A stretch of DNA of 32,000 nucleotides from Candidatus Electronema aureum (GTDB taxonomy: Bacteria; Desulfobacterota; Desulfobulbia; Desulfobulbales; Desulfobulbaceae): contig NQJD01000015.1 of assembly GCA_004284765.1 (NCBI GenBank), positions 1 to 32,000 on the forward strand, written 5' to 3'. Position 1 is the stretch's first letter; every line of letters starts with the position of its first letter. This document shows, piece by piece, positions 19,803 to 22,918 of this stretch. Under the pieces are notes generated by a model. That model ran no database searches and was not told where the DNA came from. It saw only the letters and a program-made list of their open reading frames with translations. The position numbers were made by a program, and so were the translations under genes.

Positions 19803-20609
19803 TTAATTCCTATTGGTTGTGCGCGAAAGAGGCGGCGTATCTGGTGGCTGCCAGCAAGCGTTCAGCTCATGCAGCTTGGCGTATTTATACCAAGTCCCCT
19901 CGAAGTTTCCCACCGCGATAACAAAGCCGGGCCAGCCGTCAAGGATACCTTTTTTCAAAATATACATGTGGAAAAAAGACCAAAGCCCCCGGCTCAGAGC
20001 GGTAAACATGCCACCTTTCCGGCCTCTCTGGCGGAGCTTTTCCGCGCCAAGGGTAGAGTAGCGGTTAGCCTTGCGGGCCACTTCCTCCAGATTTTTATAA
20101 GGAAATTGCCAGATAGGCTGCTGGAGATATGCGACAGGCTTAACAGAAACAATCTCGAACTCTTCATGCACCGGGTCGCTGTCCTTGAATTTCAGCGCAC
20201 CCTTGCGGAAAAGCTGCGGCTGACGATAGTCGGGATAAAAGCCGGAATGTTTGATCCAGCGGCCCATGAAAAAATTGCGCCGAGGGATATAATAGGCATC
20301 AACCGGATCAGGCAAGGCAACCGTGGCAAGCATCTCGTCCCGTGCCTCTGGGGTGCAGCGTTCGTCCGCATCAAGTGAAAAAATCCAGTCATGTGTGCAA
20401 GCGCCCATCGCCCGGTTGCGCAAATCGCCAAAGCCTTTGAATTCAATCTGCACCACTCTTGCCCCCAGTTCAGCGGCAATTTCGGCGGTACCGTCGGTAC
20501 TGAAGGAATCGGCCAGCACAATCTCATCAGCCCACAAGACCGAATTGATAGCCGAACGGATTTTGTCCGCTTCGTTCCAAGCGATGATATAGGCGGAAAT
20601 TTTGTTCAT
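19803..20609 (-). CDS. Family 2 glycosyltransferase (WaaE/KdtX-like)
   Basis: 268 aa. ISAYIIAWNEADKI...ADSFSTDGT...SLDADE (a DxD-type motif) is typical of GT2. Its start codon overlaps the stop of the upstream ATPase gene (ATGA). Confidence 0.88.
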   Translation of the reverse strand: MNKISAYIIAWNEADKIRSAINSVLWADEIVLADSFSTDGTAEIAAELGARVVQIEFKGFGDLRNRAMGACTHDWIFSLDADERCTPEARDEMLATVALPDPVDAYYIPRRNFFMGRWIKHSGFYPDYRQPQLFRKGALKFKDSDPVHEEFEIVSVKPVAYLQQPIWQFPYKNLEEVARKANRYSTLGAEKLRQRGRKGGMFTALSRGLWSFFHMYILKKGILDGWPGFVIAVGNFEGTWYKYAKLHELNACWQPPDTPPLSRTTNRN

Positions 20610-22918
20610 CGTACCGGCGGCCTCGGTGGTGGCACTGCTGGTGCTGGGCCAGCTCCGGGCGGACGTTTTGCTGCTCCACCACCAGCCAGCTGAATAACGA
20701 TGTTGTCCGTCTTGCGCAGCCGCTTGGCCAAGGTCTTAAACAAATGCCGGGCAATGTCTGGATATTTCTCCAACAGCTCCGGCAGTTTATCGCCAGGATA
20801 TTTTTTCACCTTGCTCCTGCCCACCGAGATGATTGAGGCATAACGTGACTCGTCGAGAATGCAAGCCATCTCGCCAAAATATTCACCCGGTTCAGTGATC
20901 TCGGCGATCTTCTTGCCCTGTTTCAGTACTGCTACCTTGCCCCGTACCAGCTTGTAGAAGTTGCGGTCGTCCTGGTTGCCTTCCTGAATGATAATGTCGC
21001 CGTCCTCATATTCCTCTACCGGTGGGCTGACCAAATAAGGCGGCAGGGTATCCTGATGAGCAACAGTGTTGCCCATCACCTCGTCGAGGCTGGTTACGCC
21101 CTGTATGGCCTTCATGATTGCAGCCATACGCAGCGTGTACATACCCGATTGCATAGCCACCTTGCGCAGCTGTTCCTCTGAGACCTGCGCTTGAATAGCC
21201 TGCGCTACCTCAGTGGTAACTTCCAGCAGCTCGAAAAAACCCACCCGGCCTTTGTAACCGCGACCATTGCAGACCGCGCAACCCTTGGGGCCGTAGAGCT
21301 GAAAGCCCTCCGCGTCAAGCTGCTCATCGGTGAAGCCTAACTCTTTCAGTTTTTCCCGCTCTACCGTGACCGGTTGCTTGCACTTGGCGCAGAGCCTACG
21401 GCCTAGACGCTGGGCCAGCACCATCGTCAGCGAACCTGCCAGAATATACGGTGGAATGCCGATATCCACCATACGACTGACCGTGGCAATCGCGTCGTTG
21501 GTATGCAGCGTACTGAAAACTAAGTGGCCGGTCATAGCTGCTTTCATGGCAATCTCAGCGGTGCTGAGATCACGGATCTCGCCGACCATGATGATGTCCG
21601 GATCCTGGCGGAGAAAGGCTTTCAGGGCCGCCGGGAAGGTCATGCCGACCTCACTGTTGACGTTGACCTGACAGATGCCCTTGAAGTTAAACTCAACTGG
21701 GTCTTCAGCAGTAAGAATTTTGATGTCCTCACTGTTGAGAGAGTTGAGGGCCGAGTAGAGGGTAACAGTTTTACCAGAACCGGTGGGGCCGGTGACTAAA
21801 AGCAGACCTTGCGGGCGATTGAGACAGCGTTTGAGGGATTCAAAGGTATCTACTTCAAAACCGAGCTTGGTCAAGTTGACGTTCAGCGAGCTTTTGTCCA
21901 AAATACGAAGAACGATGCCTTCACCGTGTAGAAGCGGCAGCGTGGAAACACGGAAGTCAACCGCCTTGTTACGGCCCATGCGGATACTGATACGACCGTC
22001 CTGAGGTATCCGGCGTTCGGTGATGTTCAGGTTAGCCAGAATCTTCATGCGGGCGGAGAGCGCATTCTTGATGGTCAGCGGCAGGTTCATGGACTTAAAC
22101 AAGGTGCCGTCCTTACGGTAGCGCACTTGCATAGTCTTTTCAAAGGGTTCGATATGGATATCGCTGACCCCGTCCTGCACGGCCTTGACCAAGATGCCGT
22201 TCACTAACTTGATAATCGGCGCATCGTTGGCGGAGAACTGGCTGGATTTATCGTCATCTTCGCCGTCGGAGTCCTCAATCTCGAAGTCTTCCGCTGCGTC
22301 GGATACCAGCGCACCCCAGTCCTCAACCTGCTCGACCTGCTCGACCTGCTCTTCCTCACCGCTGCCGAAGAAAGTTTTGTACTCTTCGTCTGTTATCTTG
22401 TAGTGCGTGCGGTAGGCATCAACAATATTCCGGGTGGTGGAGACGCAGACGTTCAGTGCTAACTTGAGGGCATTTTGTAGCTCCTCCACTTCCATCGCGT
22501 CCGTCGGCTCGGACATGGTGATCTGGAGAGTGTCGCCAGCCAAACGAAGCGGAAAGGCCAGATACTTCTTGGCCATTTCATAGGGCATCAGTTTGAGGGC
22601 ATCTTGACTTGGTGCCTCCTCAGCAATGTTGACTGCCGAGTAATTGTGCTGCCTGCTCAGAAAGTTGACAATCGTATCTTCTTCAATGATACCGCTGTCG
22701 AGAAAAATTTTCCCCAGCCGCTCGCCAGTTTTTTTATGAATGACCTGGGCGTTGGTAAACTCAGCAGAAGTGACATAACCTGCCTTCTGGAGCAACTCAC
22801 CAATTTTGAGCCTGCCTGCTCCTGACTGATCCTTGACAGTCCGTTTCAGAGCTGCCTTTTGATCTGCGGCTGCCGCCGGTTTTTTGGTCGGTGGGGCTAC
22901 TGGTTTTTTATTATCCAT
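20606..22918 (-). CDS. MshE/GspE/PilB-family secretion ATPase with an N-terminal MshEN domain and a C-terminal cyclic-nucleotide-binding domain
   Basis: 770 aa. Core motifs are Walker A VTGPTGSGKT, DPDIIMVGEIRD, the His box TGHLVFSTLHTND and a CAKC...CAVC tetracysteine. The MshEN-type repeat RLGKIFLDSGIIEEDTIVNFLSRQ sits in the N-terminus. The C-terminal cNMP-like block contains GEYFGEMACIL..SRYASII, followed by a Pro-rich tail. Confidence 0.93.
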   Translation of the reverse strand: MDNKKPVAPPTKKPAAAADQKAALKRTVKDQSGAGRLKIGELLQKAGYVTSAEFTNAQVIHKKTGERLGKIFLDSGIIEEDTIVNFLSRQHNYSAVNIAEEAPSQDALKLMPYEMAKKYLAFPLRLAGDTLQITMSEPTDAMEVEELQNALKLALNVCVSTTRNIVDAYRTHYKITDEEYKTFFGSGEEEQVEQVEQVEDWGALVSDAAEDFEIEDSDGEDDDKSSQFSANDAPIIKLVNGILVKAVQDGVSDIHIEPFEKTMQVRYRKDGTLFKSMNLPLTIKNALSARMKILANLNITERRIPQDGRISIRMGRNKAVDFRVSTLPLLHGEGIVLRILDKSSLNVNLTKLGFEVDTFESLKRCLNRPQGLLLVTGPTGSGKTVTLYSALNSLNSEDIKILTAEDPVEFNFKGICQVNVNSEVGMTFPAALKAFLRQDPDIIMVGEIRDLSTAEIAMKAAMTGHLVFSTLHTNDAIATVSRMVDIGIPPYILAGSLTMVLAQRLGRRLCAKCKQPVTVEREKLKELGFTDEQLDAEGFQLYGPKGCAVCNGRGYKGRVGFFELLEVTTEVAQAIQAQVSEEQLRKVAMQSGMYTLRMAAIMKAIQGVTSLDEVMGNTVAHQDTLPPYLVSPPVEEYEDGDIIIQEGNQDDRNFYKLVRGKVAVLKQGKKIAEITEPGEYFGEMACILDESRYASIISVGRSKVKKYPGDKLPELLEKYPDIARHLFKTLAKRLRKTDNIVIQLAGGGAAKRPPGAGPAPAVPPPRPPVR

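What the first reader, a model, noticed from the sequence alone, without database searches (positions are those of the whole stretch)
19803..22918. Orphan MshE/GspE-type ATPase with two second-messenger sensor modules (MshEN c-di-GMP motif plus a C-terminal cNMP-binding domain), translationally coupled to a GT2 glycosyltransferase
Seen in the sequence:
- The 770-aa ORF has a complete secretion-ATPase core: Walker A, Asp/Walker B box, His box and a CxxC...CxxC zinc motif.
- The N-terminus (aa 38-90; nt 22649-22807) holds two tandem 24-aa segments separated by 5 aa. The second, RLGKIFLDSGIIEEDTIVNFLSRQ, fits the published MshEN c-di-GMP-binding consensus RLGxx(L/V/I)(L/V/I)xxG(L/V/I)(L/V/I)xxxx(L/V/I)xxxLxxQ at essentially every position. 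The first, KIGELLQKAGYVTSAEFTNAQVIH, is degenerate.
- After the ATPase core there is an additional ~120-aa domain (aa ~625-745; nt 20684-21046) with cyclic-nucleotide-binding hallmarks (GEYFGEMACIL ... SRYASII). A 25-aa Pro/Ala/Gly tail follows.
- An acidic linker includes EQVEQVEQVE, encoded by three tandem 9-nt units (22325-22351).
- No PilC/GspF platform, pilin, secretin or PilMNOPQ gene lies anywhere in the 32 kb.
- The ATPase stop overlaps the ATG of a GT2 glycosyltransferase (ATGA at 20606-20609).

Inference: this is an ATPase integrating c-di-GMP and cAMP/cGMP-type signals. It may be coupled to glycan synthesis or export rather than to a classical pilus or T2SS. I do not know of a characterised member with this architecture.
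Basis: partly seen in the sequence, partly recalled or inferred. Interest (0 to 1): 0.72.

Follow-up and report, generated by a model that had tools for sequence, protein, structure and literature searches.

The report
Pilus motor with cyclic-nucleotide sensor
This cable-bacterium gene encodes the motor ATPase (PilB) that extends type IV pili, carrying a likely c-di-GMP sensor at one end and a cAMP/cGMP-type sensor at the other, a widespread but untested design in which two chemical messengers could act directly on the motor.

Summary
All ORFs, motifs and coordinates are correct.

**What the ATPase is**
- The 770-aa protein is a PilB-type type IVa pilus extension ATPase, not a GspE. It scores 730 bits on TIGR02538 (cutoff 676).
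- Its best solved relatives are Myxococcus and Geobacter PilB.
- It has an MshEN c-di-GMP motif above the NCBIfam cutoff.
- It has a C-terminal cyclic-nucleotide-binding (CNB) domain with an intact phosphate-binding cassette.

**How common the architecture is**
- It is not rare. All 80 species-level relatives found, nearly all Desulfobulbales, carry the CNB.
- So do all 240 listed protein clusters, which extend to Desulfobacterales and Nitrospinota.
- These are mostly annotated PilB. I found no characterised member.

**The glycosyltransferase link**
- The coupling to the GT2 is real. An orthologous GT2 follows in 71 of 79 assessable species, with an exact ATGA overlap in 45.
- The pair stays together when both flanks change.
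- The coupling is confined to Desulfobulbales. The GT2 usually borders an LPS-core cluster.

**Interpretation**
- "Orphan" is true only locally. Cable bacteria encode pilins and platform proteins elsewhere.
- The reading of a glycan-export ATPase is not supported.
- Dual-messenger control of a pilus motor is the best reading.

This is a new variant of a known kind, of moderate interest.

The parts
20606..22918 (-). pilB-CNB coding sequence (770 aa): type IVa pilus extension ATPase with an N-terminal MshEN domain and a C-terminal cyclic-nucleotide-binding domain
   Evidence: ORF. TIGR02538 scores 730.4 bits against a cutoff of 675.65. Best PDB matches are M. xanthus PilB 3jc8 and Geobacter PilB 6olj/5tsg, over aa 37/38-619/620.
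22814..22834 (-). Conserved pre-motif KDQSGAG (aa 29-35) just upstream of the c-di-GMP motif; role unknown
   Evidence: Invariant or nearly invariant in 66 Desulfobulbales orthologs. Largely kept in the wider family.
22649..22807 (-). MshEN_N c-di-GMP-binding module (aa 38-90): motif I KIGELLQKAGYVTSAEFTNAQVIH, spacer KKTGE, motif II RLGKIFLDSGIIEEDTIVNFLSRQ
   Evidence: NF053729 scores 45.4 bits against a cutoff of 38. It aligns to V. cholerae MshE 5htl and Thermus PilF. Gly at position 3 of motif I is invariant and that of motif II nearly so (Ser in 12 orthologs); most hydrophobic contact positions are kept.
22388..22645 (-). MshEN_C subdomain (Pfam MshEN, aa 92-177)
   Evidence: PF05157 scores 42.1 bits.
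22232..22378 (-). Acidic, poorly conserved linker (aa 181-229), including three tandem 9-nt units at 22325-22351 that encode EQVEQVEQV
   Evidence: Sequence. Mean identity to orthologs is 0.55.
21074..22231 (-). T2SSE ATPase core (N2D plus CTD, aa 230-615) with Walker A (21767-21790), Walker B (21569-21604), His box (21497-21532) and the tetracysteine zinc motif (21380-21391, 21269-21280)
   Evidence: PF00437 scores 444 bits. Motif coordinates. The AF2 model of the CTD superposes on Geobacter PilB 5tsh at rmsd 1.0 A over 271 columns. The four cysteines and the Walker residues are invariant.
21041..21064 (-). Short linker (aa 619-626) between the ATPase and the CNB domain, leading into the conserved LP(A/P)YL motif
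   Evidence: pLDDT is about 45 for aa 622-626 in an otherwise confident model. Conservation.
20684..21040 (-). Cyclic-nucleotide-binding domain (aa 627-745): beta-roll plus C-terminal helices, with the phosphate-binding cassette FGEMACILDESRYAS at aa 681-695 (nt 20834-20878)
   Evidence: PF00027 scores 54.2 bits against a gathering score of 27.5. Best PDB matches are the CNB domains of PKG and the PKA regulatory subunit. F681, G682 and E683 are invariant (69 sequences) and R692 is present in all 68 sequences that have the position. G682 and E683 are in 114/114 and R692 in 113/114 of the wider family. pLDDT is 84-94.
20609..20683 (-). Pro/Ala/Gly-rich C-terminal tail (aa 746-770), poorly conserved; its last codons carry the GT2 start
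   Evidence: Mean identity to orthologs is 0.19.
20606..20609 (-). ATGA stop/start overlap between pilB-CNB and the GT2 gene
   Evidence: Sequence. The same 4-nt overlap occurs in 45 of 71 species-level loci that have the GT2.
19803..20609 (-). GT2 glycosyltransferase (268 aa), probably an LPS-core type (WaaE/LgtF-like) enzyme, co-transcribed with pilB-CNB
   Evidence: PF00535 scores 69 bits. Orthologs at 67-96% identity lie directly downstream of pilB-CNB in 71 of 79 assessable species. One source names an ortholog heptose beta-1,4-glucosyltransferase. In relatives it borders heptosyltransferase, WaaL-like and MsbA genes.

Best explanation
The 770-aa gene encodes the type IVa pilus extension motor PilB of a cable bacterium (the genome is close to Candidatus Electronema nielsenii).

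**Shown**
- The core is a complete, PilB-equivalog hexameric ATPase.
- The N-terminus is an MshEN four-helix module of the kind that binds one c-di-GMP.
- The C-terminus is a minimal cyclic-nucleotide-binding beta-roll with an intact phosphate-binding cassette, joined to the ATPase by a short flexible linker.

**Inferred**
- c-di-GMP at the N-terminus and cAMP, cGMP or a related cyclic mononucleotide at the C-terminus each change how the hexamer works. They could alter its ATPase cycle or its engagement with the PilC/PilM platform encoded elsewhere.
- Pilus extension would then be gated post-translationally by two messengers.

**The downstream GT2**
- It is translationally coupled to pilB.
- It is most likely an envelope (LPS inner-core type) glycosyltransferase that shares the pilB transcript in Desulfobulbales.
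- Co-expression is shown only by gene arrangement. A mechanistic link between the two proteins is not shown.
For: **PilB identity**
- TIGR02538 scores 730.4 bits against a cutoff of 675.65. GspE TIGR02533 scores 555.7, below its cutoff of 630.25.
- The top PDB hits are full-length PilB from M. xanthus and Geobacter.
- The CTD model matches Geobacter PilB at rmsd 1.0 A and 48% identity.
- All catalytic and zinc motifs are present and invariant.

**c-di-GMP module**
- NF053729 scores above its cutoff.
- The 24+5+24 layout aligns to MshE.
- Gly at position 3 of motif I is invariant and that of motif II nearly so, and five of six hydrophobic contact positions are kept.
- Lys at position 1 of motif I matches the 6 nM binder PilF GSPII-B (PMC11731258).

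**CNB domain**
- Pfam scores 54.2 bits against a gathering score of 27.5.
- F681, G682 and E683 are invariant and R692 is present in every ortholog that has the position; A694 is kept in at least 96%.
- Domain identity to orthologs is 0.74, similar to the rest of the protein.
- The fold is confident, with pLDDT 84-94.

**Architecture conserved**
- 120 of 120 listed clusters and all 80 species-level loci carry it.
- A further 120 of 120 clusters do so in Nitrospinota, Desulfobacterales and others, each scoring above the PilB cutoff where tested.
- Where a tandem paralog exists (L087), the CNB-bearing copy is the canonical one: 744 against 511 bits.

**Pilus parts elsewhere**
- Published genome comparisons report a type IVa pilus system, pilA and two GspF-type platform proteins in cable bacteria (PMC10580974).

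**GT2 coupling**
- The GT2 follows in 71 of 79 assessable species, with the ATGA overlap in 45.
- The pair is kept when both flanks differ, in the window and in two other Electronema genomes.
Against: - No ligand binding, ATPase regulation or piliation phenotype has been measured for any member.
- I could not inventory a whole genome. I cannot exclude a second, canonical PilB next to pilC, with this protein serving another type IV filament system.
- No pil gene lies within 10 kb of this gene in the nine contexts annotated gene by gene, in the ORFs of eight further loci I listed (only some were scanned against Pfam), or anywhere in the 32-kb window.
- Motif I departs from the relaxed MshEN pattern at three positions in this protein (Q44, Q58, H61).
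- The final Gln of motif II is Met in most non-cable orthologs.
- In cable bacteria the residue after the cassette Arg is Tyr instead of the usual Ser/Thr.
- The CNB lacks the N-terminal helical bundle that transmits the signal in PKA-type domains.
- The GT2's LPS-core assignment rests on one source's name and on neighbourhood in relatives. Its nearest solved relative is a protein glycosyltransferase, GmaR.
Confidence: 0.65

Rival explanations
1. One reading: the ATPase is dedicated to glycan synthesis or export with the GT2, not to a pilus or a type II secretion system. It would power or gate polysaccharide production in response to c-di-GMP and cNMP.
For: - Translational coupling to a GT2 is conserved in 71 of 79 assessable species and survives flank rearrangement.
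- The gene is never next to pil genes in any context I examined.
- Where the GT2 is missing within Desulfobulbales, other glycosyltransferases follow instead (ELM1-like plus GT4).
- MshEN domains do control glycosyltransferases in NfrB (weak NF008411 hit; PMC8669469 is listed).
- M. xanthus PilB regulates exopolysaccharide production (PMC11656802).
Against: - The protein scores above the PilB equivalog cutoff, and its whole length aligns to pilus motors.
- ATPases of this family act through a PilC/GspF platform. None is adjacent, and no export component is adjacent either.
- The same PilB-CNB architecture in Nitrospinota, Desulfobacterales and others has no GT neighbour.
- The GT2 is a small enzyme that borders heptosyltransferase, WaaL-like and MsbA genes in most relatives. 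It therefore has an obvious job of its own.
Confidence: 0.07
2. The protein is an accessory paralog that drives a second type IV filament machine (a T2SS-like or other pilus system), while a separate canonical PilB extends the PilA pilus.
For: - Published genome comparisons report two GspF-type platform proteins in all Electrothrix and Electronema genomes (PMC10580974), which suggests two machines.
- The gene is always solitary.
- A GspE equivalog carrying the same C-terminal CNB cassette exists (P0127).
- Tandem sensory paralogs exist in L087.
Against: - The protein, not a paralog, meets the PilB equivalog cutoff.
- In L087 the partner lacking the CNB is the divergent copy (511 bits).
- GspE cutoffs are not met.
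- NCBI's annotation names it PilB in most listed genomes.
Confidence: 0.15
3. One or both sensor modules are vestigial. The CNB is a structural or oligomerisation module, or binds a non-cNMP ligand, and the MshEN motif no longer binds c-di-GMP.
For: - Tyr replaces Ser/Thr after the cassette Arg in all cable bacteria.
- The CNB lacks the N-terminal helices.
- One distant cluster (P0138) has a degenerate cassette: FCE in place of FGE, and His in place of Arg.
- Motif I deviates at three positions, and the last residue of motif II is not conserved.
- CRP/FNR-fold domains bind many ligands other than cyclic nucleotides (own knowledge).
Against: - G682 and E683 are invariant, and F681 and R692 are kept in all but one sequence, across 114 sequences from several phyla. 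That pattern is hard to explain without a ribose-phosphate ligand.
- PKA and Epac carry Ala after the Arg, so that side chain is dispensable (own knowledge).
- The CNB evolves no faster than the ATPase flanks.
- The MshEN glycines and hydrophobic cluster are conserved, and Lys at position 1 is a high-affinity variant (PMC11731258).
Confidence: 0.15

Closest known systems
Type IVa pilus extension ATPase PilB (Myxococcus xanthus; Geobacter metallireducens and G. sulfurreducens; PDB 3jc8, 5tsg/5tsh, 6olj, 5zfr)
   Same: - The full-length alignment covers aa 37/38-619/620.
- It has an MshEN N-domain, N2D and CTD, Walker A and B, Asp and His boxes, and the tetracysteine zinc motif.
- It scores above the TIGR02538 cutoff.
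- The CTD model superposes at 1.0 A.
- M. xanthus PilB also binds c-di-GMP and influences exopolysaccharide production.
   Different: - It carries an extra C-terminal CNB domain of about 120 aa plus a Pro-rich tail. No solved or reviewed PilB has this.
- The gene is not in a pilB-pilT-pilC cluster.
- It is coupled to a GT2 gene.
MshEN/GSPII c-di-GMP receptors (V. cholerae MshE 5htl; Thermus thermophilus PilF GSPII-B 8pdk/8pkz)
   Same: - It has two 24-residue motifs with a 5-residue spacer.
- Gly sits at position 3 of both motifs, and most hydrophobic contacts are kept.
- Lys at position 1 of motif I matches the high-affinity PilF GSPII-B.
   Different: - Gln58 replaces the Leu29-equivalent contact, and His61 replaces the final Gln of motif I.
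- The conserved KDQSGAG pre-motif is not described for MshE or PilF.
- Binding is untested.
Cyclic-nucleotide-binding domains of PKG, the PKA regulatory subunit, HCN channels and CRP (PF00027)
   Same: - It has a beta-roll with the phosphate-binding cassette FGE...R-x-A, followed by C-terminal helices.
- The best sequence matches are PKG CNB-D and PKA R.
   Different: - The output is a secretion-family ATPase rather than a kinase, channel or DNA-binding domain.
- It has no N-terminal helical bundle.
- Tyr follows the cassette Arg in cable bacteria.
cAMP control of type IV pili through Vfr/CRP-type transcription factors (Pseudomonas Pil-Chp/CyaB/Vfr; cyanobacterial SyCRP1)
   Same: A cyclic mononucleotide is linked to type IV pilus output.
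   Different: In those systems the messenger acts on transcription through a separate DNA-binding protein. Here the sensor domain is part of the motor polypeptide, which implies direct post-translational control.
NfrB, the c-di-GMP-activated glycosyltransferase of E. coli (MshEN fused to a GT2)
   Same: An MshEN module is associated with a family-2 glycosyltransferase. The MshEN region gives a weak NF008411 hit.
   Different: - In NfrB the two domains are one membrane protein.
- Here the GT2 is a separate 268-aa protein, and the MshEN belongs to a complete ATPase.
- No NfrA or YbcH partners are present.

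Membership tests
Type IVa pilus assembly ATPase PilB (TIGR02538 equivalog) | Whole-protein score above the curated cutoff of the equivalog model | tested here: met
   730.4 bits against a cutoff of 675.65, over aa 38-619.
Type IVa pilus assembly ATPase PilB (TIGR02538 equivalog) | Walker A, Asp box, Walker B, His box and the tetracysteine zinc motif | tested here: met
   Motifs are located. They are invariant in 44 relatives.
Type IVa pilus assembly ATPase PilB (TIGR02538 equivalog) | Fold of the ATPase C-terminal domain matches solved PilB | tested here: met
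   The AF2 model has pLDDT 87.4. Foldseek against 5tsh_B gives E 1.4e-37 and rmsd 1.0 A over 271 columns.
Type IVa pilus assembly ATPase PilB (TIGR02538 equivalog) | Works with PilC, PilM-Q and pilin encoded in the same genome, and is required for piliation | not testable with these tools
   None of these genes lies in the 32-kb window. The literature reports a type IVa system, pilA and two GspF-type proteins in cable bacteria (PMC10580974). I had no whole-genome access and no genetics.
Type II secretion ATPase GspE (TIGR02533) | Score above the curated cutoff, and an N1E domain | tested here: not met
   555.7 bits against a cutoff of 630.25. There is no GSPE_N1E hit, unlike P0127.
MshEN c-di-GMP receptor domain | 53-residue module of two 24-residue motifs separated by 5 residues, scoring above the NF053729 cutoff | tested here: met
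   45.4 bits against a cutoff of 38, over aa 38-90. The layout is verified.
MshEN c-di-GMP receptor domain | Gly at position 3 of both motifs, and the six hydrophobic contact residues (equivalents of Leu10, 25, 29, 39, 54 and 58 in MshE) | tested here: inconclusive
   G40 and G69 are present. I39, F54, L68, I83 and L87 are present. Q58 replaces the Leu29 equivalent (residue roles from PMC5013675).
MshEN c-di-GMP receptor domain | Binds c-di-GMP | not testable with these tools
   This needs ITC or DRaCALA on aa 25-180.
Cyclic-nucleotide-binding domain (PF00027) | Score above the Pfam gathering threshold | tested here: met
   54.2 bits against 27.5, over aa 635-719.
Cyclic-nucleotide-binding domain (PF00027) | Phosphate-binding cassette F-G-E-x-A ... 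R-[ST/A]-A | tested here: met
   The cassette reads FGEMA...RYAS. F681, G682 and E683 are invariant and R692 is present in every ortholog that has the position. In the wider family G682 and E683 are invariant and R692 is kept in 113/114. Position 693 is Tyr in cable bacteria and Ser/Thr in most others.
Cyclic-nucleotide-binding domain (PF00027) | Binds cAMP or cGMP and changes the output domain's activity | not testable with these tools
   This needs binding and ATPase assays.
LPS inner-core GT2 (WaaE/LgtF-like heptose beta-1,4-glucosyltransferase) | GT2 fold with a DxD motif, about 260 aa | tested here: met
   PF00535 scores 69 bits over aa 5-123, and the protein is 268 aa. LDADE lies at about aa 79-83 (read from the translation).
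LPS inner-core GT2 (WaaE/LgtF-like heptose beta-1,4-glucosyltransferase) | Encoded with other LPS-core genes (heptosyltransferase, WaaL, MsbA) | tested here: inconclusive
   This holds in most Desulfobulbales relatives but not in this window, where ispDF follows. One source names an ortholog this way. No NCBIfam equivalog is met. The nearest PDB relative is GmaR.
NfrB-type c-di-GMP-activated glycosyltransferase | MshEN and GT2 in one polypeptide | tested here: not met
   They are two separate ORFs. NF008411 scores 42.5 bits against a cutoff of 1170.

The most novel reading that the evidence does not exclude
In Desulfobulbales, including the gliding, filamentous cable bacteria, PilB-CNB and the translationally coupled GT2 form one functional module. 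In it, c-di-GMP and a cyclic mononucleotide jointly set pilus extension and the synthesis of an envelope or secreted glycan (or a pilin glycan). The two messengers would thereby directly couple motor activity to surface-glycan production during gliding or attachment. A lineage-specific Ser-to-Tyr change in the cable-bacterial nucleotide pocket would retune ligand choice.
Probability: 0.12. Interest if true: 0.75.

Novelty: new variant of a known kind. Interest (0 to 1): 0.5.

Why it matters
**For pilus biology**
- In the literature I could search, cyclic AMP influences type IV pili only through transcription factors.
- c-di-GMP acts on PilB either directly through MshEN or through adaptors.
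- A PilB with a built-in cyclic-nucleotide-binding domain would be a direct, post-translational cNMP switch on the extension motor, placed next to a c-di-GMP switch on the same polypeptide.
- That makes the question of how two messengers are integrated at one motor directly testable with a single protein.

**For cable bacteria**
- PilA is reported as the most abundant protein, and its role is open: gliding, secretion or something else.
- Knowing that the motor is messenger-gated gives a handle on when pili are made.

**For envelope biology**
- The tight pilB-GT2 operon in Desulfobulbales is an unexplained but robust association. It could point to coordinated control of pili and envelope glycans.

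Tried and rejected
- **Full-length AlphaFold2 with a shallow alignment.** 44 sequences at 72-90% identity gave pLDDT 51.6. I discarded the model. A second run on aa 351-750 with a deeper alignment worked.
- **Foldseek against afdb50.** The library was not available.
- **Kjeldsen et al. 2019 (PNAS).** I tried to read its pilus gene inventory, but the paper is not held. The supplement of PMC10580974 held as text has no PilB, PilC or PilT entries.
- **Riboswitch upstream of pilB.** I looked for a c-di-GMP or other riboswitch. Rfam finds only RNase P RNA and one tRNA in the window. Promoter and terminator scans were at background level.
- **Pil genes next to distant PilB-CNB members.** I checked four lineages to anchor function by context and found none. 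Three distant loci have zinc-ribbon-HDOD proteins instead.
- **Pilin class-III signal motifs.** I searched the window in six frames and found none.
- **Literature on a characterised T2SSE plus cNMP_binding protein.** Searches found none.
- **MshE or GspE identity.** Considered and rejected on NCBIfam scores.
- **NfrB-like identity.** Considered and rejected because the proteins are separate.
- **Not achieved.** I could not make a whole-genome count of PilB, GspE and PilC paralogs.

Full report
**1. Checking the observation**

The two ORFs are as described: 20606..22918(-) encodes 770 aa and 19803..20609(-) encodes 268 aa. The junction reads ...GTA CGA TGA on the minus strand, with ATG AAC AAA starting one base earlier. 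The ATGA overlap at 20606-20609 is therefore real.

- Walker A at aa 377-384, Walker B at 439-450 and the His box at 463-474.
- CAKC at 510-513 and CAVC at 547-550.
- The two 24-residue segments at 38-61 and 67-90, with a 5-residue spacer.
- EQVEQVEQVE at 190-199, encoded by three 9-nt units at 22325-22351.
- GEYFGEM at 678-684 and SRYASII at 691-697.

Profile searches put all three domains far above chance:
- Pfam T2SSE scores 444 bits, cNMP_binding 54.2 bits (gathering 27.5) and MshEN 42.1 bits (gathering 23.1).
- The NCBIfam c-di-GMP motif NF053729 scores 45.4 bits on aa 38-90, against a cutoff of 38.
- The GT2 hits PF00535 at 69 bits.

The rest of the window is housekeeping. It holds UbiA, Opp permeases, ArgJ, PPK1 and PPK2, NIF3, RNase HI-like, IspDF, 6-phosphogluconolactonase, CvpA, a phosphopantetheinyl transferase, a DUF2868/DUF3482 GTPase pair and EF-P. 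There is no platform protein, PilM-Q or secretin. No class-III pilin signal motif occurs in any frame.

**2. What the ATPase is**

- It is a PilB, not a GspE or a generic MshE-type enzyme. TIGR02538, the type IV-A pilus assembly ATPase PilB equivalog, scores 730.4 bits against a cutoff of 675.65. GspE (TIGR02533) scores 555.7, below its cutoff of 630.25.
- The best solved relatives are full-length PilB of M. xanthus (3jc8) and Geobacter (6olj, 5tsg, 5zfr), aligned over aa 37/38-619/620. GspE and PilT rank lower.
- An AlphaFold2 model of aa 351-750 has mean pLDDT 87.4. Its ATPase domain superposes on G. metallireducens PilB at rmsd 1.0 A over 271 columns and 48% identity. No solved structure extends into the last 130 residues.

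**3. Organism and distribution**

- The closest genomic match is Candidatus Electronema nielsenii F5 at 99% identity, so the window comes from a freshwater cable bacterium.
- All 120 best protein clusters (73-90% identity) have the MshEN + T2SSE + cNMP_binding architecture. Where a source names them, it is almost always "type IV-A pilus assembly ATPase PilB". They come from Electronema, Electrothrix, Desulfobulbus and Desulfogranum.
- All 80 species-level genomic loci carry the CNB.
- Searching 1.8 billion representatives with the C-terminal 246 residues found five long or full-length 50%-identity clusters (559-774 aa) with a C-terminal CNB fusion, plus several fragments. One of these is a GspE-type protein. 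Two clusters have an N-terminal CNB instead.
- Expanding one distant cluster (P0125, 53% identity to the window protein) gave another 120 of 120 clusters with the same architecture. They come from Nitrospinota, Candidatus Adiutricales, Desulfobacterales and unclassified Deltaproteobacteria.
- Tested representatives again score above the PilB cutoff, at 723-744 bits.
- The architecture is therefore common and consistently auto-annotated.
- I found no experimental study of it. The 2024 review of PilB control never uses the phrase "cyclic nucleotide" and treats cAMP only as acting through Vfr on transcription. Other searches were empty.

**4. The two sensor modules**

*MshEN*
- The segment aligns residue for residue to V. 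cholerae MshE and to Thermus PilF.
- In MshE, binding depends mainly on Gly at position 3 of each motif and on a hydrophobic cluster. The Arg and Gln side chains matter less than fivefold (PMC5013675).
- Here G40 and G69 are present, as are I39, F54, L68, I83 and L87. Only the Leu29 equivalent is polar (Q58).
Lys at that position is in fact found in the 6 nM binder PilF GSPII-B and in two other nanomolar binders, and K167R weakens binding there (PMC11731258).
- Across 66 Desulfobulbales orthologs, K38, G40 and R67 are nearly invariant.
- The last residue of motif II is Gln in cable bacteria but Met in most Desulfobulbus.
- A KDQSGAG stretch just before motif I is invariant in orthologs and unexplained.

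*CNB*
- The best sequence matches are PKG CNB-D and the PKA regulatory subunit.
- The phosphate-binding cassette FGEMA...R-x-A-S is intact. F681, G682 and E683 are invariant in 69 orthologs, and R692 is present in all 68 that have the position. In 114 sequences of the wider family, G682 and E683 are invariant and F681 and R692 are each kept in 113.
- The residue after the Arg is Ser/Thr in most members. It is Tyr in every cable bacterium and a few close relatives.
- The domain is as conserved as the rest of the protein (0.74 mean identity).
- It is joined to the ATPase by a short linker with pLDDT of about 45.
- It lacks the N-terminal helical bundle of PKA-type domains.

Binding of any ligand remains untested.

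**5. The GT2 and the "orphan" status**

*The coupling is real*
- An ortholog of the GT2 (67-96% identity) lies directly downstream of pilB-CNB in 71 of 79 assessable species-level loci.
- The exact 4-nt overlap occurs in 45 of them.

*The ancestral Desulfobulbales arrangement*
- The order is NifU-NifS-ThyX-(FTHFS), then pilB-CNB, then GT2, facing a convergent cluster of heptosyltransferase, a WaaL-like protein and MsbA.
- MsbA scores as an equivalog, at 620 bits against a cutoff of 602.
- In Electronema genomes both flanks differ from genome to genome, yet the pair and its overlap persist. Pgl and IspDF flank it in this window, ThyX and Sat in E. halotolerans, and FTHFS and glycosyltransferase remnants in strain V4. 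The pair therefore behaves as one unit.

*Limits of the coupling*
- The coupling stops at the order boundary. Five Desulfobulbales loci have ELM1-like and GT4 genes instead. Three distant loci have zinc-ribbon-HDOD proteins. Four other lineages have unrelated neighbours.

*What the GT2 probably is*
- One source names a GT2 ortholog heptose beta-1,4-glucosyltransferase.
- No NCBIfam equivalog is met.
- The nearest solved relative is the flagellin glycosyltransferase GmaR, at E 3.5e-12.
- I read the GT2 as a probable LPS-core type enzyme that shares the pilB transcript. Why it does so is unexplained.

*The ATPase is solitary everywhere*
- No pil gene lies within 10 kb in any context I examined. 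This is consistent with scattered pilus genes rather than absence.
- Published comparisons report a type IVa pilus system in cable bacteria and a pilA gene in the Electrothrix and Electronema genomes. Two GspF-type platform proteins appear to be present in all of those genomes (PMC10580974).
- In one Desulfobacteraceae contig, a GAF-MshEN-T2SSE paralog precedes PilB-CNB with a 4-nt overlap. There the CNB-bearing copy is the canonical one, at 744 against 511 bits.
- I could not count paralogs in a whole genome. That is the main gap.

**6. Mechanism**

Shown:
- a complete PilB motor;
- an N-terminal module of the c-di-GMP-binding type;
- a C-terminal module of the cNMP-binding type on a flexible tether;
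- an operon partner GT2.

Inferred:
- Each messenger alters hexamer activity or engagement with the platform, giving direct two-signal gating of pilus extension.

Rivals:
- a glycan-dedicated ATPase (about 0.07);
- an accessory paralog for a second filament machine (about 0.15);
- vestigial sensor modules (about 0.15).

**7. Verdict**

- The signal-integration reading is supported at the sequence level.
- The glycan-export reading and the implied rarity are not supported.
- This is a new, uncharacterised variant of a known kind (PilB), widespread in Desulfobacterota and Nitrospinota.
- Interest is moderate (0.5). It offers a clean test of direct cNMP control of a pilus motor, and it is relevant to the open question of what pili do in cable bacteria.

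Noticed in passing
window 6193-6930 (-), with neighbours 5562-6293 (-) and 3977-5530 (-): A 245-aa DUF4388 (PATAN-domain) protein (43.7 bits) sits next to an unassigned 243-aa ORF and a 517-aa MORN-repeat protein. From my own knowledge, PATAN-domain regulators act on type IV pilus motors in cyanobacteria. This is a possible distant functional link to the PilB 14 kb away.
   Followed up: no
window 17810-18185 (+): Bacterial RNase P RNA class A (291 bits) lies between an RNase HI-like gene and ispDF. The mechanical ORF 17717-17962 inside it is spurious.
   Followed up: no
window 22814-22834 (-), aa 29-35 of PilB: The stretch KDQSGAG, immediately before the c-di-GMP motif, is invariant in Desulfobulbales orthologs and largely kept in the wider PilB-CNB family. 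The MshE and PilF papers I read do not describe it, and its function is unknown.
   Followed up: partly
window aa 693 and aa 90 of PilB (nt 20840-20842 and 22649-22651); loci L003, L005-L016, L075, L081, L082: There is a lineage pattern. Every cable bacterium has Tyr after the cassette Arg (R-Y-A-S). All but Ca. Electrothrix laxa (Met) have a canonical Gln at the end of MshEN motif II. Most Desulfobulbus have R-S-A-S and Met at that motif position. This could mean retuned ligand affinities in cable bacteria.
   Followed up: partly
L087 7695-10004 (+), directly upstream of PilB-CNB at 10001-12247: In a Desulfobacteraceae contig, a 769-aa GAF-MshEN-T2SSE paralog overlaps the start of PilB-CNB by 4 nt. 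It scores below the PilB cutoff, at 511 bits. These are two tandem motor ATPases with different small-molecule sensor domains.
   Followed up: partly
L080 12300-13367, L083 12242-13336 and 13471-14517, L084 7268-8350 and 8607-9656: In the most distant orthologs (56-58% identity), PilB-CNB is followed by one or two zinc-ribbon plus HDOD-domain proteins instead of a GT2. Histidine kinases and response regulators lie nearby.
   Followed up: partly
P0127 (645 aa), P0152 (843 aa), P0197 (711 aa): The same C-terminal CNB cassette, with the LPAYLxNPD junction, also occurs on a GspE equivalog that has an N1E domain (661 bits against a cutoff of 630). Separate lineages carry the CNB at the N-terminus, before MshEN-T2SSE. 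CNB fusion to this ATPase family has therefore arisen or moved more than once.
   Followed up: partly
L072 (Ca. Electrothrix aarhusensis MCF) 10001-12177: In this draft genome the PilB reading frame breaks between the ATPase and the CNB, and the CNB continues in another frame. Several other loci show the PilB frame running on into the GT2. These could be assembly errors or real variation in the tail.
   Followed up: no
window 9167-11320 (+) and 11414-12349 (+); 12291-12920 (+) and 24414-25283 (-); 27221-30276 (+): Three gene pairs stand out. Polyphosphate kinase 1 and polyphosphate kinase 2 genes are adjacent. The window holds two CvpA-family (colicin V production) genes. A DUF2868 protein is followed by a DUF3482 GTPase of unknown function.
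   Followed up: no
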